Shown here piece by piece: positions 11,818 through 63,357 of a DNA stretch of 64,000 bases. A model generated the notes under the pieces. That model was not told the origin of the DNA. It saw only the letters and a program-made list of their open reading frames with translations, and did not search any database. The stretch lies in assembly GCA_964626205.1 (NCBI GenBank), contig CAZVED010000005.1, positions 31,603 to 95,602 of the forward strand. The letters run 5' to 3'. The number at the start of each line of letters is the position of its first letter. Position 1 is the stretch's first letter. The DNA comes from an uncultured Gammaproteobacteria bacterium (GTDB lineage: Bacteria > Patescibacteriota > Patescibacteriia > SG8-24). Both the position numbers and the translations under genes were made by a program.

Positions 11818-11834
11818 GCGAACAGACCCGGAAA

Positions 11835-11865
11835 GACCGCCCTGCAACGGGCGGTCTTTCGTTCC
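11835..11865 (+). terminator. rho-independent terminator after rplA
   Basis: gaccgccctgcaacgggcggtc followed by tttcgttcc. Confidence 0.65.
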
Positions 11866-11902: not shown

Positions 11903-12481
11903 ATGATTCTCTCCGACAAGGACATCAAGCAAGCGCTCGCCGATGGACGGATTTCCATTGATCCGTACGACCCGTCATACGTGCAGCCGGCCTCCGTGGA
12001 CCTCCGCCTGGACCGGACGTTCCTTATCTTCGACACGGTGAATCACTACGTCATCGACGTCCGCAAACCGGCGGACGACCTTATGCGCAAAGTAGTCATC
12101 AAAGATGATGAGCCGTTCATCCTCCATCCGGGCGAGTTCGCGCTCGGCGCCACCTTCGAAGAGGTCGGTGTGGGCAACGACATGGTCGGCCGCTTGGAGG
12201 GAAAAAGTTCGCTCGGCCGGCTCGGCATCATCATCCACGCCACCGCCGGCTACCTCGACCCAGGCAACAAACTCAAGATGACGCTCGAACTCTCCAACAT
12301 CGGCTCGCTTCCGGTGAAGCTCTATTACAAGATGCCGATCGCGCAGATGTCCTACTCCCCGCTTTCGAGCGTCTGTGAAAATCCGTACGGCAGCGGAAAA
12401 CTGCACTCCAAGTACTACGGCGCCCAGGAACCGCAAGCATCGCAGATGTGGAAAAATTTTGAAAAAAAGGATACTGAATGA
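11903..12481 (+). CDS. dcd: dCTP deaminase
   Basis: MILSDKDIKQALADGRISIDPYDPSYVQPASVDLRLDRTF... typical Dcd N-terminus and length. Its stop overlaps the next start (ATGA). Confidence 0.85.
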   Translation: MILSDKDIKQALADGRISIDPYDPSYVQPASVDLRLDRTFLIFDTVNHYVIDVRKPADDLMRKVVIKDDEPFILHPGEFALGATFEEVGVGNDMVGRLEGKSSLGRLGIIIHATAGYLDPGNKLKMTLELSNIGSLPVKLYYKMPIAQMSYSPLSSVCENPYGSGKLHSKYYGAQEPQASQMWKNFEKKDTE

Positions 12482-12879
12482 TCCGTATGGTGCTCCGCTC
12501 CCGCAACTCCATGGCCGCAACCGTCGCAGCAATCGCTGTCGGCGTGTTCGGCGCGCTACCAACGTTCGCGCAAACAACGATGGATTACGGCATGGACTAC
12601 GCTGAGGGTATCGGCCTCCCATCCGCACCGTTGCAGACCATCATCACCGGCTTTCTCCGCGCAACCCTCGGCTTCGTCGGCTTCGCCATGGTGCTCCAGA
12701 TCATGTACGCCGGCTACCTCATGATGACCCACGGCGACAAGGAAGAAGCGCGCGAGAAGGCCGTCGCCGCGCTTACGCAGAGCGTCGTCGGCTTTCTCAT
12801 CATCGCCACCGCCACCTCTACCGCGAAGTTCGTCGTGAATGCGGTGGTGAACGCGCAGAACGGCGGCTTCTACTCCTAG
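12478..12879 (+). CDS. TrbC/VirB2-like T4SS pilin family protein (signal peptide + two hydrophobic helices)
   Basis: Signal peptide ending ALPTFAQ, then helices LQTIITGFLRATLGFVGFAMVLQIMYAGYLMM and SVVGFLIIATATSTAKFVVNAV. RBS aagga. ATGA overlap with the dcd stop, and dut starts 5 nt after its stop. Confidence 0.65.
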   Translation: MIRMVLRSRNSMAATVAAIAVGVFGALPTFAQTTMDYGMDYAEGIGLPSAPLQTIITGFLRATLGFVGFAMVLQIMYAGYLMMTHGDKEEAREKAVAALTQSVVGFLIIATATSTAKFVVNAVVNAQNGGFYS

Positions 12880-12883
12880 CACC

Positions 12884-13318
12884 ATGAACCTCCGCATCAC
12901 CCGCATCGACAAGGGGCTCCCGCTGCCGAAATACGAAACGTCCGGCGCCTGCGCGTTCGATGTCTTCGCGCGTGAAGAGGTGGTCGTGGCGCCAAAGTCC
13001 CTCGGCATGATTCCGACCGGCCTCGTGGTCTGCGTACCTAGCGGCCACACACTTCTCCTCGCCTCGCGCTCCTCCACCCCAAAAAAGAAAGGCTTGCTCA
13101 TCCCCCACGGCATCGGCATCGTGGATCAAGACTACTGCGGCCCGGAGGACGAGATGAAAGTGCAAGTCTGGAACTTCACCGATGAGCCAGTTACCGTCAC
13201 ACGTGGCGAACGCATCGCTCAAGCCATGCTCGTCCCCATCGTCCGTGCAGAGCTCGTCGAGACAGAGGCTGGCACACTGCAAGAAAAAAGTCGTGGCGGA
13301 TTCGGAAGTACAGGATGA
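12884..13318 (+). CDS. dut: dUTP diphosphatase
   Basis: dUTPase motifs GIGIVDQDYCG and the C-terminal RGGFGSTG. Confidence 0.9.
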   Translation: MNLRITRIDKGLPLPKYETSGACAFDVFAREEVVVAPKSLGMIPTGLVVCVPSGHTLLLASRSSTPKKKGLLIPHGIGIVDQDYCGPEDEMKVQVWNFTDEPVTVTRGERIAQAMLVPIVRAELVETEAGTLQEKSRGGFGSTG

Positions 13319-13350
13319 AAAAATGACCCTCTGCTGAGAGGGTCATTTGC
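13319..13350. terminator. bidirectional terminator between dut (+) and gmk (-)
   Basis: gaaaaaatgaccctctgctgagagggtcatttgcg (A-run, hairpin, T-run). Confidence 0.7.
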
Positions 13351-14051: not shown

Positions 14052-14837
14052 TCAGACCTTGCGGTATGCGGGAACGTACGACGGAATGCCGTTGATGTCC
14101 TGGATGTCGTACCCTTGGAAGAAGTTCGGGTACCGTTCTGAGACCGTCGCAGCGACCTCCGCGAAGACGAGACGGATCTCCTCCTCTGCACCCTCGGACG
14201 TGCGCATCTCGATCACGTGCCGCAGCGCGCGGGCGTTGGCAGACCAGCCAATGGTCGTCGCGAGCCCTTCGGGCGCGAGACGGCGCATCGCCGACGTGAC
14301 CTCCTTCTTCTTGGCGAACGGCAGCGCGCCCTCGTCGAGCTTGAAGTGCGCGGCCAGCGTGCGCTGCATGTCCTCCAAGATCTCGACGGTCGAAGTGACG
14401 AGCTCGCAGACGACCTCATCTTCCGCGAAGCAGACCGGGAGCCAGAAGCCGATGTCCGTGAGACGCACGTACCGGAGGCTCTCCTGGGAGATGGCCGTGC
14501 CGGCACGGTGCCGGACGAGCTCGTGCGTGAACACGCGCGAGACGTCCGCGAAGACGAAGTTGAACTGGGGATGCTCGAGCACGGAGCCGTGCGCCGACTT
14601 CAGGATGTTCTCGAGGTACAGCGCATTGCCCTCGCGGATCTTCGTCACGTTCGGATTCAATCCGACTTCGAAGCTCCGGTAACACAGGCGACCGTAGAAC
14701 TCAGCGAGCTTCTCGGCGTCAGAGCCTGCATCCGTCGACCAGTGCGGGATGCCGAGATGCTTAAGATACGCCTGCAGGCCGTCGGGGACGATTCGTGTCT
14801 CCCCGATAAGGAAAACACGTGGAGTGACTGAACGCAT
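14052..14837 (-). CDS. thyX: FAD-dependent thymidylate synthase ThyX
   Basis: ThyX motif ELVRHRAGTAISQESLRYV (RHR...S). RBS aaggagg before ATG at 14837. Confidence 0.9.
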   Translation of the reverse strand: MRSVTPRVFLIGETRIVPDGLQAYLKHLGIPHWSTDAGSDAEKLAEFYGRLCYRSFEVGLNPNVTKIREGNALYLENILKSAHGSVLEHPQFNFVFADVSRVFTHELVRHRAGTAISQESLRYVRLTDIGFWLPVCFAEDEVVCELVTSTVEILEDMQRTLAAHFKLDEGALPFAKKKEVTSAMRRLAPEGLATTIGWSANARALRHVIEMRTSEGAEEEIRLVFAEVAATVSERYPNFFQGYDIQDINGIPSYVPAYRKV

Positions 14838-14962
14838 CGGATACCTCCTTGCTTGAACGCTGCTGCAGTATACACGTAGGCCAACTCCGGTCAACCGCAC
14901 CGTCCACCTGGCCCGCTTGCGATGAGATTCTCGGCATGGCAAGCTCCTTGCGGGAGGATCTT

Positions 14963-48505: not shown

Positions 48506-49630
48506 ATGCCGCTCTTCCGCCGCGCTATCGCGACCCTTGCCCTCGCTGTCGTCCTCATGACGGCAGCGTTCGGCGTGCTCGTGCCCACCACACTCGCGCA
48601 GGTGCAGGTCATCGAGCCGACACTCAGCATTCCGATACCAAATCTGAAATTCAGCGACGCCGAGGTCATCGACGCAGCATCCGGAAACGCCGAAGGTCTC
48701 GGCATCTCATGGATTGCAGACTACGTCCAAGCTGTCTACGACTACGCCATCGCCATCGCGGGCGTGCTCGCTGCCACCATGATGATGATTGGCGGGTTCC
48801 AGTATCTCACCGCCGGCGGCGACGGCGGAAAGGTTAGCGGTGCCAAGAAGCGCATCGGTGACGCACTCGTCGGTCTCATCCTCGCGCTCGGAACGTATGT
48901 CATTCTCACGACGGTCAGCGACCGGCTCGTAGCACTCCAGCGCATCGACGTCGAGATGGTTGAGCGGCAAATGTTCGCCGTCACGGACCTGCACGATGCG
49001 GGAGCGATTGCGCCCGATACGGGTGGCGGGGCTGCAGCGAAAGGCAGTCCGGTGTGTACCAACACGGAAACCTGTACCCCGATCTGCAACTTGCCGCGAA
49101 GTCAATGGCCAAAGACGGGAGGGAACGTCTTGCCCGTGGAGCAGACCGTCATCATCGGTCGCTTGCCAGGCATCAGCTCCGGGCATTCCTTGCGTGTCGC
49201 GCCAGAAATGCAGACCGCACTCGAACGCGCTGGAAGAATCGCTCAGCAGCGGGGGTATACGATCAATATCGGATCTGCATACCGCCCGCTGGAAAACCAG
49301 ATAGCAGCGGCGTGCGAAAAGATCAAGCAGGGCTTGGGGGATCAAATCGGTAGCATCGTCGCCCGCCCAGGAACGTCCAATCACGGACATGGTAAGGCGG
49401 TCGATGTCGTGCTCATGCGGGATGGAAAAAAGGTGACGACATCTGCATCCAGCCAGCAATACGACGAGGTCTGGCGTGACCATGCGATGGTTCTCGCGGA
49501 GATCATGGCCGAAGCCGGACTTGTCCGATATAGCCGAGAAATCTGGCATTTCGAGATCCCGACCGGTGAAGCGTGCCGCTGCAAAGGAGCCGCTTGCGCA
49601 TTCCCTCCTCCCAAAGCCCCTAGTTGTTGA
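48506..49630 (+). CDS. fusion protein: TrbC/VirB2-like pilin N-terminal domain + C-terminal M15 (VanY-like) zinc D,D-peptidase domain
   Basis: Signal peptide ...TTLAQ, two pilin-type helices (YAIAIAGVLAATMMMIGGF / ALVGLILALGTYVILTTVS), then the M15 motif SNHGHGKAVDV (SxHxxGxAxD). Eight Cys in the extracytoplasmic part. The track ORF from 48416 has an N-terminal extension. Confidence 0.6.
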   Translation: MPLFRRAIATLALAVVLMTAAFGVLVPTTLAQVQVIEPTLSIPIPNLKFSDAEVIDAASGNAEGLGISWIADYVQAVYDYAIAIAGVLAATMMMIGGFQYLTAGGDGGKVSGAKKRIGDALVGLILALGTYVILTTVSDRLVALQRIDVEMVERQMFAVTDLHDAGAIAPDTGGGAAAKGSPVCTNTETCTPICNLPRSQWPKTGGNVLPVEQTVIIGRLPGISSGHSLRVAPEMQTALERAGRIAQQRGYTINIGSAYRPLENQIAAACEKIKQGLGDQIGSIVARPGTSNHGHGKAVDVVLMRDGKKVTTSASSQQYDEVWRDHAMVLAEIMAEAGLVRYSREIWHFEIPTGEACRCKGAACAFPPPKAPSC

Positions 49631-49672: not shown

Positions 49673-51085
49673 ATGAAAAACTCCCACCTCTTCGTCTGTT
49701 CCAACTGCGATGCTCAGTCCCCCAAATGGACCGGGCAGTGTCTTGAGTGCGGCAAATGGGGCACCGTGACGGATGCCATGGAAAGCGGCGCGGCGGCGGC
49801 TCCCAAGGCCCATGCCATCGCGGCGGCAACCACGCGCCCGGCGGCCCTGGAGACGCTCAAAGGAAAGACGGCTGGCAACGCTCCCCGCGTCGCCACCGGC
49901 ATCGGCGAGCTTGACCGCGTCTTCGGGGGCGGTGTCATCGCAGGCTCCGTCACGCTCTTGGGTGGCGAGCCGGGCATCGGCAAATCCACTATCTCGCTCT
50001 CTCTCGCCTCACGCTTCGGTGCGCAAGGTAAGGACGTCGTTTACGTCTCCGGCGAAGAGTCCGCCGCGCAGATTGGAATGCGTGCGGACCGTCTTAAGCT
50101 CCCCACGGACCGTGTCTCGTTTCTTTCCCATACCGACACCGACACCGTCATCGCAACGCTCGCCAAGCACAAGCCCGCGCTCGCCATCATCGACTCCATC
50201 CAGACCATGACGGACTCCTCCGTCCCTTCGGCTGGCGGGTCCACTGCGCAGATCCGTACCGTCACCGCCAAGCTCGTCGGTTTCGCCAAGGAAACCGGTA
50301 CCGCACTCATGATCATCGGCCACGTCACCAAGGACGGAACGGTCGCCGGGCCAAAGACCTTGGAGCACCTCGTAGACACAGTCTTCTCTTTCGAAGGCGA
50401 GCGCACGCACGGCCTCCGCGTGCTCCGCGTGCTCAAGAATCGCTTCGGTGCCACAGACGAAGCCGGCATGTTCGAAATGACGGAGGAAGGTCTACGTGAG
50501 GTGAAGAACCCTTCCGCCTACCTCCTGGACGAACGCCAAGGAACAGTCCCCGGCTCCGTCATCACGGCGGTATTGGAAGGTAGCCGTCCGGTACTCGTAG
50601 AGGTGCAGGCATTGGTGCAGAAAACCGGCTTCGGCTTCCCCACACGCCGCGCCAACGGTATCGAGCAGGCGCGCCTCGAGATGCTCCTCGCGGTCTTGAG
50701 CCGTCGTGGCGGCGTCGACCTCTCGCAGTATGATGTCTTCGTGAACGTCGTCGGCGGCATCCGCATCAAGGAGCCTGCGGCGGATCTCGCGGTCGCGGCA
50801 GCACTCGTCTCCGCCTATGCCAACGTCCCCATTCCTGCAGACTCCGCGGCATGGGGTGAAATCGGCCTCGGCGGCGAAGTGCGCGCCGCAGTGGGAGCGG
50901 ACCGGCGTCTCGCGGAAGCCGGCAACCTCGGCATGAAGGACGTCCTCACCTCCCTCCCCCGCAAGGTTCAGCCGAGGCTTCCGAAAGGCATTGGCATCAC
51001 GGACATTCGCTCCGTCGCCGACCTCGCACAGCACATCACCGCAACAACGAAAGCATCCATGGAAAAAAAGAAAGCCGCTGCATGA
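49673..51085 (+). CDS. radA: DNA repair protein RadA
   Basis: N-terminal zinc finger (CSNCDAQSPKWTGQCLECGKWGT), Walker A GEPGIGKST, KNRFG motif, Lon-like C-terminal domain. Confidence 0.93.
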   Translation: MKNSHLFVCSNCDAQSPKWTGQCLECGKWGTVTDAMESGAAAAPKAHAIAAATTRPAALETLKGKTAGNAPRVATGIGELDRVFGGGVIAGSVTLLGGEPGIGKSTISLSLASRFGAQGKDVVYVSGEESAAQIGMRADRLKLPTDRVSFLSHTDTDTVIATLAKHKPALAIIDSIQTMTDSSVPSAGGSTAQIRTVTAKLVGFAKETGTALMIIGHVTKDGTVAGPKTLEHLVDTVFSFEGERTHGLRVLRVLKNRFGATDEAGMFEMTEEGLREVKNPSAYLLDERQGTVPGSVITAVLEGSRPVLVEVQALVQKTGFGFPTRRANGIEQARLEMLLAVLSRRGGVDLSQYDVFVNVVGGIRIKEPAADLAVAAALVSAYANVPIPADSAAWGEIGLGGEVRAAVGADRRLAEAGNLGMKDVLTSLPRKVQPRLPKGIGITDIRSVADLAQHITATTKASMEKKKAAA

Positions 51086-53339: not shown

Positions 53340-55472
53340 TTACTCCACATGCGCCGACTCCACGGCGACACGAACCTGCTCGGCAAGGAGCGGGTACCCG
53401 GCGAGCGTGGGGTCTTCCGCAAGGATGCGCTGAGCGGCTTCTTTGGCAGTGCGGACGAGGCTCATGTCCGCAATACTCGCGAATCGGAGCTCCGGGAACC
53501 CGGACTGAGCGTCACCCAGCAGGTCGCCGGGACCGCGCAGCTCTAGGTCTTTTTCCGCGAGCGTGAACCCGTCCTTGTGCTGCACTACCGCCTTGAGCCG
53601 CGCCTTTTCGCCGTCCGTATCCTTCGTGGGGAACAGGAAGCAATACGACGCATGCGCTCCCCTACCGATACGCCCACGGAACTGATGGAGCTGCGCGAGA
53701 CCGAACCGCTCCGCACCCTCGATGCACATCACGCTGGCATTCGGCACGTCCACGCCGACTTCCACGACAGAGGTCGCCACAAGCACCTGCGTCTCGCCCG
53801 CAACGAACCGTCGCATGACCTCTTCTTTCTCCGCAGAGGAGAGCTTCCCGTGAAGCATGCCGACCGTATACCCCTTCAACTCCCCCTTAGCGAGTTTCTC
53901 AAAAAGTTCGGTCACGGATGCTGCCTCCACCATGTCGGAACGGTCGATGAGCGGACAGACTACGAACGCCTGCCGTCCTTGGTCGAGCTGACCGCGCACG
54001 AACGCGAATGCCCTCTTGCGGCCGACCGGCATGACCAGTTTCGTTTCGATATCCTTGCGCGCTGCCGGTTTCTCCTTGAGGAGCGAGAGGTCGAGGTCGC
54101 CGTATGCCGTGAGCGCCAACGAGCGCGGAATCGGCGTTGCAGTCATAGAGAGCAAGTGCGGCTCCGTCCCAACATCACCGCTCTTGGCACGGAGGAGCTT
54201 GCGCGTCCGTACGCCGAACCGATGCTGTTCGTCCACCACGGCGAAAGCAAGGTCGTGGAAACTGAGCGCGTCATAGACGAGCGCATGCGTGCCGATGATG
54301 ATATCCACGCGTCCTTTGGCGATTTCCTCGCCGAGCGCAGCAACCTCCTTTTTCCCTTTCGCTTCGATCTCTTTGCCACCCCGCACCGAACGACGATGCG
54401 CATTGGTCCAGAGCACGATGGTCACATTCTTCTCGCTGGCGAACGTGCGTGCGAACGTGCCGAAGTGCTGCTGCGCGAGAATCTCCGTCGGTGCCATGAC
54501 CGCAACCTGACGACCTGCCGCAACGACGTTCCGTGCGGCAATCATCGCGACCGCGGTCTTGCCAGTACCTACGTCCCCGTCCAAAAGCCGCGCCATGGGA
54601 ATATTCCTGCCCATGTCCTGCATCGCCTCCCACGCTGCGACACGCTGATCCTTGGTGAGGGGGAACGGCAACGACGCCACGAACGCTTTCACGATGTCCT
54701 CGGCAAACGGCACTGGCGCCGCAGTCGCCTTCTCGCGATATGCGCGCATCCTACCGACGGCGATTTGCAGCCGCAGAAGCTCGTCAAACGCCAGGCGGTG
54801 ACGAGCGCGGTCCGCACTGCCCTCAGCTGTCGGAAAATGCGCCTCGCGGAGAGCGGCGGCGAGAGGAAGGAGCCCATACTCCGTGAGTAGCGGCTCCGGG
54901 AGCGGGTCCGGTAAAAGGTCGATGACCGACGCGCACTTTGCCACCGATACCCGCACCGCGCGCTGCGTCAGCCCGATGGTGAGCGGATACACTGGCATGA
55001 CCTCGCGTACGGAGGTGTCGTTTGCCGCGCTCGCAGCAGGCGTCACGACATCCAGAGAACCGACGCGTTCGAACTGCGGATTGATGAGCTTCTTCCCGAA
55101 CTTGGACAGCTTCACCTTTCCCGCGAACCGATATGCATTTCCCACGACGAGCGTCTTCACGAGGTATGGTTGGTTGAACCAGATCGCGCCAATCTCGTCC
55201 GTGCCATCGGAGAGTACAGCCTCGGTCATGGTCATGCGCTTGCGGAAGCTGCGCTTGTTCTGGAGCGCTGTCACCTGCAACGTGAGTGCGACGTTCGTTT
55301 CTGGTATCGCCTCCACCAACCCGCCGCTACCGTACGTTTCGTAGCGAAACGGAAGGTGCAGAAGCAAGTCCCGCACGGTCACAAGGCCGATACCCGAAAA
55401 AACCGGGCATAGCCGTTTGACGATGCCAGGAACATCTTCGAGCCGCGTATCCGGCGTGATCTGCCGTTTCAT
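53340..55472 (-). CDS. recG: ATP-dependent DNA helicase RecG
   Basis: Wedge domain, helicase motifs DVGTGKTAVAM, DEQHRFG, SMTATPIPRS, QFRGRIGRG. Confidence 0.93.
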   Translation of the reverse strand: MKRQITPDTRLEDVPGIVKRLCPVFSGIGLVTVRDLLLHLPFRYETYGSGGLVEAIPETNVALTLQVTALQNKRSFRKRMTMTEAVLSDGTDEIGAIWFNQPYLVKTLVVGNAYRFAGKVKLSKFGKKLINPQFERVGSLDVVTPAASAANDTSVREVMPVYPLTIGLTQRAVRVSVAKCASVIDLLPDPLPEPLLTEYGLLPLAAALREAHFPTAEGSADRARHRLAFDELLRLQIAVGRMRAYREKATAAPVPFAEDIVKAFVASLPFPLTKDQRVAAWEAMQDMGRNIPMARLLDGDVGTGKTAVAMIAARNVVAAGRQVAVMAPTEILAQQHFGTFARTFASEKNVTIVLWTNAHRRSVRGGKEIEAKGKKEVAALGEEIAKGRVDIIIGTHALVYDALSFHDLAFAVVDEQHRFGVRTRKLLRAKSGDVGTEPHLLSMTATPIPRSLALTAYGDLDLSLLKEKPAARKDIETKLVMPVGRKRAFAFVRGQLDQGRQAFVVCPLIDRSDMVEAASVTELFEKLAKGELKGYTVGMLHGKLSSAEKEEVMRRFVAGETQVLVATSVVEVGVDVPNASVMCIEGAERFGLAQLHQFRGRIGRGAHASYCFLFPTKDTDGEKARLKAVVQHKDGFTLAEKDLELRGPGDLLGDAQSGFPELRFASIADMSLVRTAKEAAQRILAEDPTLAGYPLLAEQVRVAVESAHVE

Positions 55473-55517: not shown

Positions 55518-55594
55518 TGGTGCACCCGGCAGGAGTCGAACCTGCGACCTTCAGCTCCGCAAGCTGACGCTCTATCCAGCTGAGCTACGAGTGC
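55518..55594 (-). tRNA. tRNA-Arg (anticodon GCG as read)
   Basis: The minus strand gcactcgtagctcagctggatagagcgtcagcttgcggagctgaaggtcgcaggttcgactcctgccgggtgcacca folds as a canonical cloverleaf. Anticodon loop tt-GCG-ga; encoded CCA. Confidence 0.8.
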
Positions 55595-56356: not shown

Positions 56357-56445
56357 GGAGGGCTGCGCCGAATGGTAAGGCACCAGTTTGCTAAACTGTG
56401 ACGCCGCAAGGTGTCTTCTGGGTTCGATCCCCAGGCCCTCCGCCA
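56357..56445 (+). tRNA. tRNA-Ser (anticodon GCU), class II with long variable arm
   Basis: ggagggc acceptor, anticodon loop tt-GCT-aa, variable arm tgacgccgcaaggtgtcttc, T-arm ctgggttcgatccccag, 3-prime gccctcc-g-cca. The spurious antisense ORF translates to the classic GIEPRR artefact. Confidence 0.8.
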
Positions 56446-56528: not shown

Positions 56529-56616
56529 GGAGGGGTGGCCGAGCGGTTGAAGGCACCGGTCTTGAAAACCGGCAGGGCGCAAGTCCTCGTGAGTTCGAAT
56601 CTCACCCCCTCCGCCA
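56529..56616 (+). tRNA. tRNA-Ser (anticodon UGA), class II
   Basis: ggaggggtggccgagcggttgaaggcaccggtcttgaaaaccggcagggcgcaagtcctcgtgagttcgaatctcaccccctccgcca. The antisense ORF gives the GVRFELT artefact. Confidence 0.88.
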
Positions 56617-58835: not shown

Positions 58836-58862
58836 AAAAACCGGCATCTGCCGGTCTTTTTT
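58836..58862. terminator. bidirectional terminator (hypothetical gene + / comF -)
   Basis: aaaaaccggcatctgccggtctttttt. Confidence 0.75.
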
Positions 58863-59674
58863 CATCCCCGCAACACCGTCACGGCCGTCACACGAAGCGC
58901 TCCGGCATCCCGGAGCGCTTTTGCGCATGCCGCGAGCGTCGACCCTGTCGTCATCACATCGTCCACGATGACGCACGACTCCGGCGCCGCGCGCAGGGAC
59001 GTGACCGCGCCACGGACGTTCTCCGACCGCAACACGCTCTCCCCCATCTCTACCTGCGTCTTGCTCGAGTACGCACGCCGGAGCAATGTGCGGTCCACAG
59101 CATGGCCGGTCGCGGCAGCAAGCGTCTCCGCGAACACGTCCGCCTGATTGAACCCACGCATCCGAAGCCTCAATGGATGCAACGGTGACGGCACAATGAC
59201 CGCCTCTGTGTCTCCCAACGTGCGAAGCTCCTCACCACGCCCGGCAAGGAACGCGGCGAACAGGTCCGCAAGCGCCGTCCCAGCCTCCTCGATGCCCTCA
59301 TACTTGTAGGCCTGTAGCAGTTCGCGTAGCAGCGGGTCGTTGTAAGGAGCCATGCAAAGGACACCATCTAGGCCTTCCACGTGAACAAGAAATGGTGTCG
59401 CGTTGCGTTCCAGGCCAGGCCCCTCCGGGGAGGCTAAAGTCGGAGCCGCCTCCCCGGAGGGGCCTGGCCTGGGGCGTAAGGCACCGTCAAGAGATAACGA
59501 AAAGCCTCCGATGGTGGAGGCTTTTTTTATCTCGAGACACGCAGCGCAGAGCAGAGATCCTTCCATGCGGCACCCCAGGCAAAAATGCGGAAATAGCACC
59601 GGACCGGCGGATGCAACCGCCGTCCGTACGATCCTTATTGCCGTGGTTGCCACTCCGCGGAATCCGCCATCCAT
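58862..59674 (-). CDS. comF: ComF family phosphoribosyltransferase-domain protein carrying an in-frame palindromic insertion
   Basis: N-terminal LFPHFCLGCRMEGSLLCAACLEI (ComF zinc finger), LDGVLCMAPYNDPLLRELLQAYKYEG, PRT motif VIVDDVMTTGSTL. The start codon is uncertain and overlaps the upstream gene. Confidence 0.8.
   Translation of the reverse strand: MDGGFRGVATTAIRIVRTAVASAGPVLFPHFCLGCRMEGSLLCAACLEIKKASTIGGFSLSLDGALRPRPGPSGEAAPTLASPEGPGLERNATPFLVHVEGLDGVLCMAPYNDPLLRELLQAYKYEGIEEAGTALADLFAAFLAGRGEELRTLGDTEAVIVPSPLHPLRLRMRGFNQADVFAETLAAATGHAVDRTLLRRAYSSKTQVEMGESVLRSENVRGAVTSLRAAPESCVIVDDVMTTGSTLAACAKALRDAGALRVTAVTVLRG
59410..59472. repeat. perfect inverted repeat (24-bp arms, 15-nt spacer) embedded in frame inside comF
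   Basis: ccaggccaggcccctccggggagg-ctaaagtcggagccg-cctccccggaggggcctggcctgg. Translated as ALRPRPGPSGEAAPTLASPEGPGLER in ComF. Confidence 0.8.
59498..59528. other. terminator-like hairpin (A-run, GCCTCC-gatggt-GGAGGC, T7) located inside the comF reading frame
   Basis: aaaagcctccgatggtggaggcttttttt on the plus strand. The minus strand also has an A7-hairpin-TTTTCGTT. It encodes KKASTIGGFS of ComF. Confidence 0.6.
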
Positions 59675-60267
59675 TCGCCGTTCGTCTTGATGAGTTCGAG
59701 GATGATGTCCTGATAATACACCTCGGCGGCCGTGGTGCCGGACGCATCCTGGCGGCGCTGGGTGCTGACGCGCACCGTAGCAGTCCCCGCATCTTCGTCA
59801 AATGTCACGATGGTCGGAGCAAGCGCGCGGGTCGTGACACCGTAATGGACTGTAGTGTCGCCGGAGGCGGCCCGTGCGTCCGCCACATACTGGTCGGCCC
59901 ACGCCTGCATGGACGGGGTCATGACCGTCCGTAAATCCGTGATGTTCACGAAGTCCGTCTGGTTGGAGAAGCTGCCGAACCGTTCGGTGAATGCCGCCGC
60001 GAAACGCAGGATGGCTGATGTGTCGTCCGGCGGCGCCGTCGGCGCCGTTTCGGTCGGGGCTGGCTGCACCGGAGCCGGAGTCGCTCCGCGATTAGGATCG
60101 TTGGCTTCCGGAAGCCCTGTCGTCGACTGCCCGTTCCCCTGCGCCGTGACATCCACGACCGGAACCGTCGGAGCAGGACGCTGCATCAGGAAGAACAGGG
60201 CGATAGCCAACAAGAGGAGGATGAGCGCGATGGCGATACCAAGAAGGACTTTCTGTCGTCGTGTCAT
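59635..60267 (-). CDS. membrane-anchored protein downstream of VirB4 (possible VirB8/TcpC-like periplasmic domain)
   Basis: N-terminal TM helix (LLGIAIALILLLLAIALFFL), Pro/Thr/Ala-rich linker, C-terminal domain of about 120 aa. Position in the T4SS-like operon. Confidence 0.4.
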   Translation of the reverse strand: MTRRQKVLLGIAIALILLLLAIALFFLMQRPAPTVPVVDVTAQGNGQSTTGLPEANDPNRGATPAPVQPAPTETAPTAPPDDTSAILRFAAAFTERFGSFSNQTDFVNITDLRTVMTPSMQAWADQYVADARAASGDTTVHYGVTTRALAPTIVTFDEDAGTATVRVSTQRRQDASGTTAAEVYYQDIILELIKTNGEWMADSAEWQPRQ

Positions 60268-60276
60268 AGGCGTCGG

Positions 60277-62226
60277 TTATGCGGTAGGTGGTGTTCCGGC
60301 TGGGGCAGCTCCTTTAGCAGCGGCGTTCGCAGCATCCTGCCGTGCGATCTCGGCTTCGTACTCCTTCTTTGCCTCCGCGATCTCGATGAGCTGTTGCGGG
60401 TTCGTGGTGACGATCTGGTCTTCGGTGTAGCTCGCCACGACCTTGATGGCCGCGTGCTTATTGCCAGCGAAGAAGATACCTTCGCCGACACCACCCTCGA
60501 GGAGAAGGAACTTCTCGCCCTCCGTGAGAAGGAACGTCTTGGCGACGTTGTCGATGGCCGCCGGCGACTGCTTGAGCAGCATCTGCATGGCGGAGTTCGT
60601 CACGATGGCCTGGCCGTAGGGCGAACGCAGGAAGTCGTTCACGTCCTGGGTGATCGTCGTGACACCGAGGAAGTACTTACGGCAGCGCTTCACGAGCGCG
60701 AAGATGAACTTCGCCGAGTCCTCGTGCTGCATGAGCCACCATGCCTCGTCGATGACGAGAATGCGCTTCTTCTTCTCCGAACGGACGACGTTCCAGATGT
60801 AGTTGACGACCGCGTAGATGGCGAGTGGGCGAAGTTCGTCTTCCAAGTCACGGACGCAGAACGTGACGAGCAGGTTATTCATCTGCACGGTCGTCGGCGA
60901 GTTGAAGAGACCGGCGAACGTACCTTCCGTGAACTTCTTCAGCTTGATGACGATGTCCTTGGTGCCTTCCATGCCATCGAGCACTTCCACGAAGTCCTGC
61001 ATGACCGGCGCTTCGACCTGCGAAAGATCGGCATCGGCAGTGATGTCCTTCTTGGCGTAGGTTTCAAGCAGCGCACGGTCGAGGACGGAGTCTTCCTGCG
61101 GCGTGACGGTGCCGAGCATGATGCGGAGCAAACCCTTGGTCGTGATGACCGCCGAGCGGATGATGTCTTCGGTGGATACCTCCTCGCCCACCGCGCGCGG
61201 CAGGTCGAACGGGTTGATCTTAGCGTCCGACGCGAGCGAGAGGTTCACGTACGTGCCGCCGACGGCATCCGAGAGGTGCTTGTATTCCTGTTCCGGGTCG
61301 ATGACGATAACGTCGGTCCCCAGCATGAGCGACCGCAAAATCTCGAGCTTCACAGTGTACGACTTACCCGCACCGGAGGTCGCGAACACGATGTAGTTCG
61401 CGTTCTGCATGGAGAAGCGGTCGAAGAGGATGAGGCTGTTGTTGTGGCGGTTGATGCCGAACAAGATGCCGTTCTCGGACGTAAGGTCCGCGGAGATGAA
61501 CGGGAACGACGACGCAATCGGGCTCGAGTTCATGTTGAACGTCGTCATGAGCTCGTCGTTACCGATCGGTAGCGTGGAATTGAAGCCCTGCTCCGCCTGA
61601 TAGAATACGCGCTTCGTGTAGATGAGCTTTGACCCGAAGACGGACTCCACTTCCTCGCTGAACTTATCGAGGTCTTCCTTGGTCTTTGCGTACATCGTGA
61701 CGTACAACGCAAACTGGAAAAAGTGCTCCGTCCCCTGGGAGAGCGTGTCACGCAGCCATTCGATGTCCTGGAGCGCCTGTTCACGGATGGGGTCGCGTGG
61801 CTTTCCGGACTCCGAATCCGAAACGATCTGCGCTTCGAGCGTACCGACCTTCTTCTGCAACTGCTTCAGGATGACATTAGCCTTGACCGGGTAGAAGAAC
61901 ATCGCCACGTCGATGGTCTTGTTCATGTTGATGACCGGCGTGAACCAGCCGAGCGACAGGTGGCGCGGATAGGACACGACGAACACCGTCCGAACGAAGC
62001 TCTCACCGAGCTGCAAGAACGTCGGCTGGATCTGCATCCCTGCGGGCGAGATGAGATCCTTGATGGAGACGACGCCTTTGCGATAGATGCGCTCCTCTTC
62101 GAGCAACGTCTTCTGTTCCGCGAGCTTTGTCTGCTCTTCTGCCTGCTTCTTCCCCTTCCCCGAAAGGTCCTTCGGGTCTTTGGGGACGCTGACCTGTGTG
62201 CCGAGTTGTTGCGGTGTGAACGCCAT
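60277..62226 (-). CDS. virB4: VirB4/TraC/CagE-family T4SS ATPase, C-terminal 650-aa portion (linker + ATPase)
   Basis: LISPAGMQIQP...VRTVFVVSYPRHLSLGWF, Walker A FATSGAGKSYT, Walker B RILVIDEAWWLM. Start MAFTPQQ at 62226; the 703-aa track ORF is over-extended. Confidence 0.88.
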   Translation of the reverse strand: MAFTPQQLGTQVSVPKDPKDLSGKGKKQAEEQTKLAEQKTLLEEERIYRKGVVSIKDLISPAGMQIQPTFLQLGESFVRTVFVVSYPRHLSLGWFTPVINMNKTIDVAMFFYPVKANVILKQLQKKVGTLEAQIVSDSESGKPRDPIREQALQDIEWLRDTLSQGTEHFFQFALYVTMYAKTKEDLDKFSEEVESVFGSKLIYTKRVFYQAEQGFNSTLPIGNDELMTTFNMNSSPIASSFPFISADLTSENGILFGINRHNNSLILFDRFSMQNANYIVFATSGAGKSYTVKLEILRSLMLGTDVIVIDPEQEYKHLSDAVGGTYVNLSLASDAKINPFDLPRAVGEEVSTEDIIRSAVITTKGLLRIMLGTVTPQEDSVLDRALLETYAKKDITADADLSQVEAPVMQDFVEVLDGMEGTKDIVIKLKKFTEGTFAGLFNSPTTVQMNNLLVTFCVRDLEDELRPLAIYAVVNYIWNVVRSEKKKRILVIDEAWWLMQHEDSAKFIFALVKRCRKYFLGVTTITQDVNDFLRSPYGQAIVTNSAMQMLLKQSPAAIDNVAKTFLLTEGEKFLLLEGGVGEGIFFAGNKHAAIKVVASYTEDQIVTTNPQQLIEIAEAKKEYEAEIARQDAANAAAKGAAPAGTPPTA

Positions 62227-62227
62227 A

Positions 62228-62923
62228 CTAGATGCTGTTCTGGTTATCCGACACGCGCAAGTCGCCGACGTCGCGCATCTTCTGCGAGTCGAGGAGTTCC
62301 GGGTTGTACGCGCGATAGTAGAGCTCGATGAGGCTCTGCGTGTCGAGCATGACAGACTTGAGTCCCATGGACTGAAGATTGCCAGCAATGCCGTTCACAC
62401 GCGACAGCAGCTGTTCCTTGCGGTCACGGAAACGCTTCTCCGCGAGCTTCACGATAGCGGCCGGCTGGAACGCCTCGCTCAGACGCGCCCAGAAACCCTT
62501 GGACTTGTCCGACAGCGGATTATACGGCACGACGACGAAGAACTGCTTCTGCATGATCTGTCCGATATCAACGAGTTCCGAGACGAACCCACGATAATCC
62601 GCGATCTGCAGCTTGAGCAGTTCGTTCTTCTGGTTCTTCTGCGCCTCAGCAAGCCGCTCCATATACGCCTCGATGTTGAGACGGCGTGACTGAATGACGA
62701 TCTGCAACGGGAACTCGAGCGAGTTCATGAAGCTGATGTACTGCTGGATAATGGCATTCTGCTCGTCTTCGGACTTGAGCGCAAAATTGATGGATGCCAC
62801 GAGCAAAACCGCGCGAAGCGTGCCGTCTTTCATGACGACGACGTCTTCGCGGACTTCCGCGATGTCGAGATACCGTTGTGTCGCAGGTCCCGGTTTCGGT
62901 CCCGCAAGTTTCTTCGACTGCAT
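62228..62923 (-). CDS. VirB4 N-terminal domain encoded as a separate 231-aa ORF (split gene or frameshift)
   Basis: DIAEVREDVVVMKDGTLRAVLLVASINFALKSEDEQNAIIQQYISFMNSLEFPLQIVIQS matches the N-terminus of Gram-positive VirB4 homologs (PrgJ/TraE type). Stop TAG, 1 nt, then the ATG of the ATPase ORF in the +1 frame. Confidence 0.7.
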   Translation of the reverse strand: MQSKKLAGPKPGPATQRYLDIAEVREDVVVMKDGTLRAVLLVASINFALKSEDEQNAIIQQYISFMNSLEFPLQIVIQSRRLNIEAYMERLAEAQKNQKNELLKLQIADYRGFVSELVDIGQIMQKQFFVVVPYNPLSDKSKGFWARLSEAFQPAAIVKLAEKRFRDRKEQLLSRVNGIAGNLQSMGLKSVMLDTQSLIELYYRAYNPELLDSQKMRDVGDLRVSDNQNSI

Positions 62924-62925
62924 GG

Positions 62926-63357
62926 CTATGCTTCAGGGTTATAGACGCCGCCCGTGTTGACGATCATCGTCAGCTCGGAGAGCTTGGAGGCTTCCACGCG
63001 CGCCTTGAGCTTTCGCGTGGGTGGGGGCGGAGGCGGGGGCTCATTGAGAATCGCCTTGAGCTCCGCGTCGGTAAGGTCCTTGTCCCAAACGCGGCGTGGC
63101 GGCTTCCTCCATGTCTGGATGAGGTTCAGCAGGAAAAAATGGAACGGCTGACCGTTGATCTTCGTGAACGCGAGAATACCGCCGAGCGCGAGCTCGATGA
63201 CGCCGACCGTGATAAACAGCGCGAAATCGAAAAGCTGAAACGCGATAAACATGAACATCGCCGTGACGAGCAGAATGACGAACTGCCGCGTCGTGATAGG
63301 ACCGATGATCTTATCTTCGACGTCGATGAATTGCGGAACAACGTATTTCTGCGCCAT
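62926..63357 (-). CDS. PrgI family (VirB3-like) small membrane protein
   Basis: MAQKYVVPQFIDVEDKIIGPITTRQFVILLV matches the PrgI-family N-terminal signature. Two TM helices, poly-Pro C-terminal part. Its stop is 2 nt before the VirB4 N-domain start. Confidence 0.7.
   Translation of the reverse strand: MAQKYVVPQFIDVEDKIIGPITTRQFVILLVTAMFMFIAFQLFDFALFITVGVIELALGGILAFTKINGQPFHFFLLNLIQTWRKPPRRVWDKDLTDAELKAILNEPPPPPPPTRKLKARVEASKLSELTMIVNTGGVYNPEA

What the first reader, a model, noticed from the sequence alone, without database searches (positions are those of the whole stretch)
11903..13318. VirB2-like pilin gene translationally coupled between dcd and dut
The pilin-like ORF starts with ATGA overlapping the dcd stop and ends 5 nt before the dut ATG, so it is embedded in a nucleotide-metabolism operon (dcd-pilin-dut, convergent with gmk-thyX, then tmk). 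It has an AAGGA RBS, a cleavable signal peptide and two hydrophobic helices, so it is unlikely to be a GC artefact. Co-expression of a surface filament subunit with dUTP/dCTP-handling enzymes is unusual. It may reflect coupling of DNA uptake (the T4SS-like pilus) with nucleotide salvage in an organism lacking de novo synthesis.
Basis: partly seen in the sequence, partly recalled or inferred. Interest (0 to 1): 0.5.

Follow-up and report, generated by a model that had tools for sequence, protein, structure and literature searches.

The report
Pilin gene inside dcd–dut operon
A real, conserved gene for a small VirB2-like secretion-system pilin sits wedged between two nucleotide-metabolism genes in one clade of ultra-small (Patescibacteria) bacteria; it most likely borrows a housekeeping operon for expression, and nothing tested ties it to nucleotide chemistry.

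Summary

The ORF is a genuine gene:
- GC3 is 0.84.
- It scores 28.8 bits against Pfam PF18895 T4SS_pilin (cut-off 26.6).
- It has 70 orthologues at 33-78% identity, and all of them hit PF18895.
- dN/dS is 0.15-0.44.

In every orthologue with readable context (about 15 contigs) the gene occupies the same slot: rplK-rplA-dcd-pilin-(dut). On a dcd tree the pilin-bearing loci form one clade with one nested loss (L007). None of about 66 other Patescibacteria dcd loci has a pilin, so this is one ancient insertion, inherited vertically. The pilin stays where dut is absent (five loci, three lineages) and where dcd is absent (one contig).

A T4SS core (prgI, virB4, comFC-like) lies 46 kb away. It has no stand-alone pilin next to it here or in two relatives. 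So this is probably the clade's free-standing T4SS pilin, expressed from a constitutive operon.

The proposed link between DNA uptake and nucleotide salvage is untested and rests on a single evolutionary event. Verdict: a new member of a known family in an unreported but modestly interesting genomic context.

The parts
11832..11859 (+). Hairpin after rplA (11-bp stem AAAGACCGCCC / GGGCGGTCTTT, 6-nt loop). Terminator-like upstream boundary of the dcd unit.
   Evidence: Read directly. The consensus scan did not list it, so its strength is unknown.
11903..12481 (+). dcd, dCTP deaminase, 192 aa. Its last codons (K-K-D-T-E) carry the Shine-Dalgarno sequence for the pilin gene.
   Evidence: TIGR02274 187.6 bits (cut-off 92.8). 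PF22769 E=6e-43.
12467..12471 (+). AAGGA Shine-Dalgarno-like motif, 6 nt upstream of the pilin ATG and inside the dcd coding sequence.
   Evidence: Sequence. Equivalent GAAGGA or AAGGA motifs occur in L001 and L090.
12478..12879 (+). VirB2-like pilin-family gene (PF18895), 133 aa. The ATG overlaps the dcd stop (ATGA).
   Evidence: PF18895 28.8 bits against GA 26.6. All 70 aligned family members (this protein and its 69 orthologues) hit PF18895 and 21 of 70 hit PF04956 TrbC/VirB2. GC3 is 0.84. dN/dS is 0.15-0.44.
12478..12570 (+). Predicted leader, residues 1-31: MIRMVLRSRNS, a hydrophobic core, then TFA|Q. The orthologue consensus is PALA|.
   Evidence: Alignments. The leaderless 98-aa orthologues start exactly at the following residue block, MVDLGL. 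Cleavage itself is inferred.
12631..12852 (+). Helical hairpin: TM1 at about residues 52-83, conserved loop LMMTHGG-x-EE, TM2 at about residues 93-125.
   Evidence: Hydropathy. AF2 helices 52-84 and 89-128 with pLDDT 72-82. Invariant columns.
12884..13318 (+). dut, dUTP diphosphatase, 144 aa, starting 4 nt after the pilin stop with no obvious Shine-Dalgarno sequence of its own.
   Evidence: NF001862 114.3 bits (cut-off 103). PF00692 E=1.5e-22. Sequence.
13321..13348 (.). 12-bp hairpin (AAATGACCCTCT / AGAGGGTCATTT) between the convergent dut and gmk genes. Candidate bidirectional terminator.
   Evidence: Sequence. The minus-strand version is listed.
58862..63357 (-). T4SS core cluster, the presumed partner machinery: prgI/VirB3-like 62926-63357; TraC-like ORF 62228-62923; virB4 60277-62226; NTF2/SnoaL-like protein (VirB8-like?) 59635-60267; comFC-like protein 58862-59674.
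   Evidence: Pfam hits. ORFs. Orthologous clusters. VirB4 orthologues are named Ca. Uhrbacteria.
48506..49630 (+). Second pilin-domain protein of the window: an N-terminal pilin-like hairpin fused to a VanY/M15 peptidase.
   Evidence: PF02557 E=1e-9 and PF18895 21.5 bits, below GA. The A2 profile matches at E=3e-7.

Best explanation
The 133-aa ORF encodes a stand-alone member of the Patescibacteria VirB2-like pilin family (Pfam PF18895).

Predicted protein: a Sec-type leader, a short conserved extracellular N-segment (DYG-x-x-YA-x-x-IGLP), and a two-helix membrane hairpin joined by a conserved cytoplasmic loop (LMMTHGG-x-EE).

Origin and inheritance: the gene was inserted once, immediately downstream of dcd in the rplK-rplA-dcd-dut housekeeping block. 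This happened in the ancestor of one Uhrbacteria-like (class ABY1) clade. It has been inherited vertically under purifying selection ever since.

Expression (inferred): it is transcribed with dcd and dut as one unit bounded by hairpins, and translated by coupling to dcd termination. The Shine-Dalgarno sequence sits inside the dcd 3' end. This would give it constitutive expression just downstream of a ribosomal-protein operon.

Function (inferred): it enters the membrane and serves as the free pilin or conduit subunit of the chromosomal T4SS encoded 46 kb away (prgI, TraC-like, virB4, VirB8-like, comFC-like). That cluster has no stand-alone pilin of its own.

What is shown and what is inferred:
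- Shown: gene reality, family membership, single-origin synteny, tight spacing, and the absence of a solo pilin at the T4SS locus.
- Inferred: co-transcription, leader cleavage, and partnership with the T4SS.
- Also inferred: the position reflects expression hitch-hiking, with no biochemical link to dNTP metabolism.
For: Family membership:
- PF18895 at 28.8 bits, above GA 26.6.
- All 70 aligned family members (this protein and its 69 orthologues) hit PF18895, and 21 of 70 hit PF04956 TrbC/VirB2.

A real coding gene:
- Coding GC pattern.
- dN/dS 0.15-0.44.
- GC content the same as the flanking genes.

Synteny:
- rplA-dcd-pilin occurs in L001-L006, L008, L087-L093 and L095.
- The spacer from dcd stop to pilin start is 7 nt or less in 9 of 12 loci.

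Single origin:
- Pilin-bearing loci are monophyletic on the dcd tree, and L007 is a nested loss.
- The profile finds no pilin in about 66 other dcd loci (+-6 kb), although it detects distant tandem-array pilins in L083 and L096.

Pilin kept without its nucleotide-gene neighbours:
- Without dut in L087, L088/L089 and L092/L093.
- Without dcd, directly after rplA, on the P0058 contig.

Other points:
- The junction is a recurrent insertion site: NMP-kinase-like proteins, nucleoside deoxyribosyltransferase, a methyltransferase and a transporter occur there in other lineages.
- A T4SS core is present in the window.
- No solo pilin lies within 10 kb of virB4 in two relatives. One of them, GCA_035495855.1, is the genome that also carries dcd-pilin-dut.
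- In the literature, VirB2-like pilins are widespread in Patescibacteria and lie away from virB4 in about 40% of pilin-bearing assemblies (PMC12102498).
Against: - Nothing shows transcription, leader cleavage or pilus formation.
- The AF2 model is only moderate (pLDDT 65). Foldseek against the PDB gives no significant match to solved VirB2, TraA or archaeal pilins (best E=1.7; 8dfu E=5). The PDB sequence profile search found nothing.
- Only 64 kb of the genome is visible, so other solo pilins may exist elsewhere.
- Leaderless orthologues arose at least twice, which is atypical for canonical VirB2.
- The pilin domain also occurs as an N-terminal module on giant proteins and on hydrolases. Its core role may therefore be membrane anchoring, not filament building.
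- A hairpin after rplA (11832-11859) may block read-through from the ribosomal operon. No sigma-70-like promoter was found upstream of dcd.
Confidence: 0.6

Rival explanations
1. Functional coupling. The pilin is part of a T4SS conduit that imports host DNA or deoxynucleotides. On this view it is co-regulated with dcd, dut, thyX, tmk and gmk so that uptake and dNTP interconversion are expressed together.
For: - The pilin lies in a cluster devoted to dTTP synthesis.
- The arrangement has been kept over deep divergence, down to 33-45% pilin identity.
- The T4SS cluster in this window and in relatives is flanked by comFC-like, recG and radA genes. PMC12102498 reports this pattern for class ABY1.
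- PMC12102498 and PMC12857230 note that ComEC is dispensable in Southlakia epibionticum while the T4SS is essential. PMC12102498 speculates that another system supplies nucleotides.
Against: - One evolutionary event is not independent evidence.
- The pilin is retained after loss of dut or of dcd.
- One clade member lost the pilin but kept dcd-dut (L007).
- There is no pilin at dcd loci of about 66 other Patescibacteria.
- Unrelated genes occupy the same junction elsewhere.
Confidence: 0.12
2. A small two-pass membrane protein that is homologous to pilins but does not polymerise. It could be a membrane anchor, adaptor or assembly factor, with or without T4SS involvement.
For: - The domain is widely used as an N-terminal anchor on giant 2.5-4 kaa proteins and on peptidoglycan hydrolases.
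- Leaderless forms exist.
- There is no significant structural match to solved pili.
- It is a single gene, not the variable tandem arrays typical of Patescibacteria pilins (L083, L096; PMC12102498).
Against: - It has no cargo domain to anchor.
- All aligned family members match the pilin HMM, and a third also match TrbC/VirB2.
- The T4SS cluster otherwise lacks a stand-alone pilin.
Confidence: 0.22
3. A spurious ORF created by high GC content between dcd and dut.
For: The window is 60% GC and has many long antisense ORFs.
Against: - GC3 of 0.84 in this frame.
- A Pfam hit above threshold.
- 70 orthologues with invariant motifs.
- dN/dS below 0.45.
- Gene callers of four sources annotate it.
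Confidence: 0.01

Closest known systems
VirB2-like pilins of Patescibacteria (PF18895/PF04956), e.g. the essential six-gene pilin array of Southlakia epibionticum (PMC12102498; PMC12857230)
   Same: - Same Pfam family.
- Same size class (about 100-135 aa).
- Leader plus two hydrophobic helices.
- Host is a monoderm Patescibacterium with a chromosomal, relaxase-less MPF-FATA-like T4SS (prgI, virB4).
   Different: - Single stand-alone gene, not a divergent tandem array.
- Lies 46 kb from virB4, not beside it.
- Embedded in, and translationally coupled within, a dcd-dut operon.
- A fixed syntenic orthologue across a clade.
- Some orthologues lack the leader.
Canonical VirB2/TrbC pilins of diderm conjugation systems (Agrobacterium VirB2, RP4 TrbC; Pfam PF04956)
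   Same: - Predicted topology: cleaved leader, two TM helices, short polar loop.
- 21 of 70 aligned family members match PF04956.
   Different: - The window protein itself does not reach PF04956 at E<=0.1.
- No significant sequence or fold match to solved pilins.
- No virB operon context.
- No evidence for cyclisation or acetylation machinery.
Mbov_0395-family pilin-like conjugal transfer proteins of Mycoplasma ICEs (NCBIfam NF045849)
   Same: A small pilin-like two-helix protein of a wall-less or monoderm lineage. The match covers residues 51-121.
   Different: The score of 38.3 bits is just below the curated cut-off of 40. The gene is not on an ICE.
Inserts at the dcd-dut junction in other Patescibacteria
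   Same: Same genomic slot, same strand, tight packing between dcd and dut.
   Different: The inserts there are NMP-kinase-like P-loop proteins, nucleoside 2-deoxyribosyltransferase, a SAM methyltransferase or unknown small proteins. None is a pilin.

Membership tests
Pfam PF18895 T4SS_pilin (Patescibacteria VirB2-like pilins) | Profile HMM score at or above the curated gathering score | tested here: met
   28.8 bits against 26.6, residues 51-114. All 70 aligned family members (this protein and its 69 orthologues) match, best E=2.4e-14.
Pfam PF18895 T4SS_pilin (Patescibacteria VirB2-like pilins) | N-terminal leader followed by two hydrophobic helices joined by a short polar loop | tested here: met
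   Hydropathy segments at residues 11, 54 and 94. AF2 helices 10-30, 52-84 and 89-128. Conserved PALA-type site. Cleavage was not tested.
VirB2/TrbC pilins (Pfam PF04956) | Profile HMM match | tested here: inconclusive
   The window protein has no hit at E<=0.1 in my scan. 21 of 70 aligned family members hit, best E=2.9e-9. The precomputed table lists PF04956 for the identical protein P0001.
VirB2/TrbC pilins (Pfam PF04956) | Gene lies in the T4SS operon next to virB3/virB4 | tested here: not met
   prgI and virB4 lie at 60277-63357, about 47 kb away. The orthologues are likewise at dcd, not at virB4. In Patescibacteria, pilins lie near virB4 in 1,135 of 1,948 assemblies (PMC12102498), so this feature is not strict for the phylum.
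VirB2/TrbC pilins (Pfam PF04956) | Fold matches solved conjugative pilins | tested here: inconclusive
   Foldseek against the PDB gave no hit with E<=0.001. Generic helical hairpins rank first. The archaeal conjugation pilus 8dfu ranks 21 with E=5. The model's pLDDT is 65.
VirB2/TrbC pilins (Pfam PF04956) | Polymerises into an extracellular pilus or conduit dependent on VirB4 | not testable with these tools
   Needs microscopy, proteomics or genetics.
NCBIfam NF045849 Mbov_0395 pilin-like conjugal transfer protein | Score at or above the curated cut-off | tested here: not met
   38.3 bits against a cut-off of 40.
dCTP deaminase (TIGR02274) and dUTPase (NF001862), the flanking genes | Equivalog HMM above cut-off | tested here: met
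   dcd 187.6 bits against 92.8. dut 114.3 bits against 103.

The most novel reading that the evidence does not exclude
The fixed, translationally coupled placement of the clade's only stand-alone T4SS pilin inside the dTTP-synthesis gene block (dcd, dut, thyX, tmk, gmk) could reflect real co-regulation. Together with comFC, recG and radA flanking the T4SS itself, it might mean that a T4SS conduit imports host DNA or deoxynucleotides and that the enzymes converting the imported material are expressed with it. That would be a genomic clue to why the T4SS is essential in Patescibacteria.
Probability: 0.1. Interest if true: 0.7.

Novelty: new member of a known kind. Interest (0 to 1): 0.3.

Why it matters
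VirB2-like pilins and a chromosomal T4SS are already known to be widespread in Patescibacteria, and essential in the one species tested. What they transport is an open question.

This locus adds a small, concrete fact. In one Uhrbacteria-like clade the stand-alone pilin is a single-copy, vertically inherited gene. It is wired into a housekeeping nucleotide-metabolism operon next to the L11/L1 ribosomal genes, whereas the T4SS locus itself carries only pilin-domain fusion proteins.

This is useful in three ways:
- Annotation: these genes are currently labelled 'hypothetical'.
- Experiment: it helps choose which pilin to study in ABY1 genomes.
- Hypothesis: it is a weak lead linking the T4SS to nucleotide acquisition.

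On present evidence it does not change what is known about mechanism.

Tried and rejected
- BLASTP of the pilin against the 404-aa VanY protein found nothing. Only the 70-sequence profile shows the relationship.
- The PDB sequence profile search gave only chance hits to cytochrome b and a GPCR.
- Foldseek of the AF2 model against the PDB gave only generic helical hairpins, none significant. Fold therefore cannot confirm or deny VirB2 membership.
- An exact-sequence look-up of the window protein's own contig found nothing on record.
- The metagenome scan with the pilin alignment was swamped by low-specificity patterns and returned only 5 loci, none adding dcd context.
- The sigma-70 promoter scan found no promoter upstream of dcd or inside the operon. 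Terminator-like hits were at chance level, so operon boundaries rest on hairpins read by eye.
- Spurious ORF: considered and rejected (see rival explanations).
- Recent horizontal insertion: considered and rejected, because GC is uniform and the pilin tracks the dcd phylogeny.
- Split or frameshifted virB4: considered and rejected. The ORF at 62228-62923 is a separate TraC-like gene in orthologous clusters.
Full report
**1. The observation**

- dcd runs 11903-12481 on the + strand.
- A 133-codon ORF runs 12478-12879. Its ATG overlaps the dcd TGA, giving ATGA. An AAGGA at 12467-12471 lies 6 nt upstream of that ATG.
- dut runs 12884-13318, starting 4 nt after the ORF's TAG.
- dcd and dut pass NCBIfam equivalog cut-offs (187.6 against 92.8 bits; 114.3 against 103 bits).
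- gmk (minus strand), thyX (minus strand) and tmk (plus strand) follow.
- An 11-bp hairpin lies after rplA (11832-11859). A 12-bp hairpin lies between the convergent dut and gmk genes (13321-13348). Together they bracket the three genes (the second is also).
- There is no room inside the unit for a promoter or terminator.

**2. Is the ORF a gene?**

Yes.
- Its codon-position GC (0.57/0.45/0.84) matches the neighbouring real genes in this 60%-GC window.
- It scores 28.8 bits on Pfam PF18895 T4SS_pilin (gathering score 26.6). It scores 38.3 bits on NCBIfam NF045849 'Mbov_0395 pilin-like', just under the cut-off of 40.
- A profile search returned 70 proteins in one tight subfamily (E from 1e-23 to 1e-55), then a gap to 2e-5. 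Their identity to the window protein in the alignment is 33-78%.
- All 70 aligned family members (the window protein and its 69 subfamily relatives) hit PF18895, and 21 also hit PF04956 TrbC/VirB2.
- The alignment shows invariant or near-invariant motifs: YA-x-x-IGLP in the N-segment, R-x-x-x-G-x-x-G in helix 1, G-x-LMMTHGG in the loop, and FV-x-x-A in helix 2.
- Pairwise dN/dS between orthologues is 0.15-0.44.
- GC content shows no discontinuity across the gene.

**3. Anatomy of the protein**

- Hydropathy and an AlphaFold2 model built on the 70-sequence alignment (mean pLDDT 65; 72-82 over the hairpin) give a leader helix (10-30), a low-confidence linker, and a helical hairpin (52-84 and 89-128).
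- The leader ends in TFA|Q. The orthologue consensus is PALA|.
- About ten orthologues are 98 aa long and start with MVDLGL, exactly at the predicted mature N-terminus. No upstream start codon or hydrophobic leader is possible in them.
- On the dcd tree these leaderless forms fall in two separate places (L006, and L088/L093), so the leader was lost at least twice.
- This supports the predicted cleavage point. It also shows that the leader is dispensable, which is unusual for VirB2-type pilins.
- Charge distribution is acidic in the N-tail and net basic in the loop. This fits an N-out, loop-in, C-out topology (inference).
- Sequence search of the PDB and Foldseek of the model found nothing significant. 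A two-helix hairpin is too generic a fold to discriminate.

**4. Conservation of the arrangement**

I fetched 80 genome loci around close dcd relatives, all from Patescibacteria MAGs despite noisy labels. I also fetched contigs for eight pilin-family proteins returned by the profile search.

Every locus with dcd at 77% identity or more carries the pilin immediately after dcd, with one exception: L001-L006, L008, L087-L093 and L095.

The common order is secE-nusG-rplK-rplA-dcd-pilin-(dut), followed by gmk, thyX and tmk.

The spacer from dcd stop to pilin start is -28, -4, 1, 1, 1, 1, 4, 4, 7, 23, 44 or 47 nt. The end of dcd often supplies the Shine-Dalgarno sequence.

A neighbour-joining tree of dcd puts all pilin-bearing loci in one clade.

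Variations on the arrangement:
- L007 is nested inside the clade, beside L003. It has dcd and dut 4 nt apart and no pilin, which is a secondary loss.
- dut is missing in L087, L088/L089 and L092/L093, but the pilin stays.
- On the P0058 contig dcd is missing and the pilin follows rplA directly.
- None of the roughly 66 loci outside the clade has a pilin-family hit within +-6 kb of dcd. The profile is sensitive enough to find distant tandem-array pilins (L083, L096) and 37,358 cluster representatives in the exhaustive library.
- Outside the clade the dcd-dut junction is either closed (2-30 nt) or holds other genes. These include NMP-kinase-like P-loop proteins, a nucleoside 2-deoxyribosyltransferase, a SAM methyltransferase, an antisense AEC transporter and unknown small proteins.
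- The next-nearest pilins are not dcd-linked. P0069 (E=1e-25) is one of a tandem pair and P0071 is one of a four-gene array.

Conclusion: this is one insertion into a recurrently used junction, followed by vertical inheritance. The stable neighbour is the rplKA-proximal slot, not dcd or dut as such.

**5. Where is the secretion system?**

The window holds a T4SS core on the minus strand:

| Gene | Coordinates | Evidence |
|---|---|---|
| prgI (VirB3-like) | 62926-63357 | PF12666 |
| separate ORF | 62228-62923 | orthologues carry PF26593 TraC-like |
| virB4 | 60277-62226 | PF19044, E=1e-25 |
| N-terminally anchored protein | 59635-60267 | weak SnoaL/NTF2 hit, possibly VirB8-like |
| comFC-like protein | 58862-59674 | Pribosyltran domain |
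| recG | 53340-55472 | RecG wedge and helicase domains (PF17191, PF00270, PF00271) |
| radA | 49673-51085 | RadA-like domain set (PF18073, PF13481, PF06745) |

- This matches what PMC12102498 reports for class ABY1: T4SS loci with comF, recG and radA, and VirB8 homologues almost confined to that class.
- The best named VirB4 relatives are Candidatus Uhrbacteria. One pilin orthologue is also from a genome labelled Uhrbacteria.
- In two relatives I could see 10 kb on each side of virB4 (L097, L098). One of them, L097, comes from GCA_035495855.1, the same genome that carries dcd-pilin-dut in L095.
- In both relatives the only pilin-domain ORFs near virB4 are fusion proteins next to radA.
- The dcd-linked gene is therefore the only stand-alone pilin seen in this clade. 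It is the obvious candidate for the free pilin subunit of that T4SS. This is an inference, because whole genomes were not visible.

**6. The second pilin-domain protein**

- The protein at 48506-49630 has a VanY/M15 peptidase domain and a sub-threshold PF18895 hit.
- BLASTP against the dcd-linked pilin finds nothing.
- The 70-sequence profile matches its residues ~97-165 at E=3e-7. The GGF-x-x-x-T-x-GGD loop motif aligns.
- The two proteins are distant homologues, not recent paralogues.

**7. Mechanism and rivals**

*Best reading (confidence about 0.6).* This is a stand-alone VirB2-like pilin of the chromosomal T4SS. It is expressed constitutively by riding in the dcd-dut unit just downstream of the L11/L1 operon, and translated by coupling to dcd. 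The position is a historical accident kept because it provides suitable expression.

*The functional-coupling idea (about 0.12).* The idea is T4SS-mediated DNA or nucleotide import co-regulated with dNTP interconversion. It is attractive for three reasons. The whole block makes dTTP. The T4SS is flanked by competence and recombination genes. The literature speculates that the essential Patescibacteria T4SS may supply nucleotides (PMC12102498; PMC12857230). But the association rests on a single evolutionary event. It survives loss of dcd or dut. It is absent from all other dcd loci examined.

*A non-polymerising membrane role (about 0.22).* The same domain is widely used as an N-terminal anchor on hydrolases and on giant proteins, and leaderless forms exist, so this reading remains open.

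*A spurious ORF* is excluded.

**8. Novelty**

- VirB2-like pilins of Patescibacteria are described. They occur in 1,948 assemblies, lie near virB4 in 1,135 of them, and are often in divergent arrays (PMC12102498).
- Full-text searches for dCTP deaminase with pilin and Patescibacteria returned nothing. The papers found on VirB2 in Patescibacteria do not mention this arrangement.
- This is therefore a new member of a known family, in an unreported, clade-fixed genomic context.
- It is of modest interest.

Noticed in passing
window 48506-49630 (+); L098 19782-21110 (-); L097 20342-21899 (-): A pilin-like two-helix domain is fused to a peptidoglycan hydrolase, between a DsbA-like gene and radA. 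The hydrolase is VanY/M15 in the window and Peptidase_M23 in L098. L097 has a 588-aa pilin-domain protein in the same slot. The anchor is kept while the catalytic domain is swapped, so this may be a membrane-anchored VirB1 analogue.
   Followed up: partly
window 58862-63357 (-), 53340-55472 (-), 49673-51085 (+): A T4SS core (prgI, TraC-like ORF, virB4, NTF2-like protein) is directly followed by a comFC-like gene and lies near recG and radA. This is the ABY1-class pattern described in PMC12102498. No relaxase or coupling protein was seen among the window proteins scanned.
   Followed up: partly
L006 6590-6886; L088 1792-2088; L092 398-694; L093 2470-2766: 98-aa leaderless orthologues of the pilin begin exactly at the predicted mature N-terminus (MVDLGL...). 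No upstream start is possible. They arose at least twice on the dcd tree.
   Followed up: yes
Representative library hits P0107-P0214; L097 1-3124 and L098 1-3171: The pilin domain occurs at the N-terminus of giant proteins (about 2,500-4,000 aa) and as 2-11 tandem copies within single proteins. Giant genes (3,595 and 2,935 aa) lie a few genes upstream of prgI in two relatives, but their N-termini lie outside the loci held.
   Followed up: no
L011, L018, L030, L041, L044, L050, L066, L073, L078 (dcd-dut gaps): The dcd-dut junction is a recurrent insertion site across Patescibacteria. Inserts include NMP-kinase-like P-loop proteins (AAA_17/18), nucleoside 2-deoxyribosyltransferase, a SAM methyltransferase, an antisense AEC-family transporter, a 4-TM protein and unknown small proteins.
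   Followed up: partly
L087 6072-7787; L088 2876-4516; L090 5553-7211; L095 5913-end: ThyX is double-length (546-571 aa) in several relatives, against at most 296 aa in the window (14052-14942, minus strand). This could be a tandem duplication or a fusion, and it is unrelated to whether dut is present.
   Followed up: no
L006 6946-7926 (-): In one relative a 327-aa gene with no Pfam hit is inserted on the opposite strand between the pilin and dut. It breaks the pilin-dut adjacency but leaves dcd-pilin intact.
   Followed up: no
window 55521-55594 (-), 56357-56442 (+), 56529-56613 (+): Three tRNA genes lie between recG and the T4SS cluster. They are the only Rfam matches in the window.
   Followed up: no
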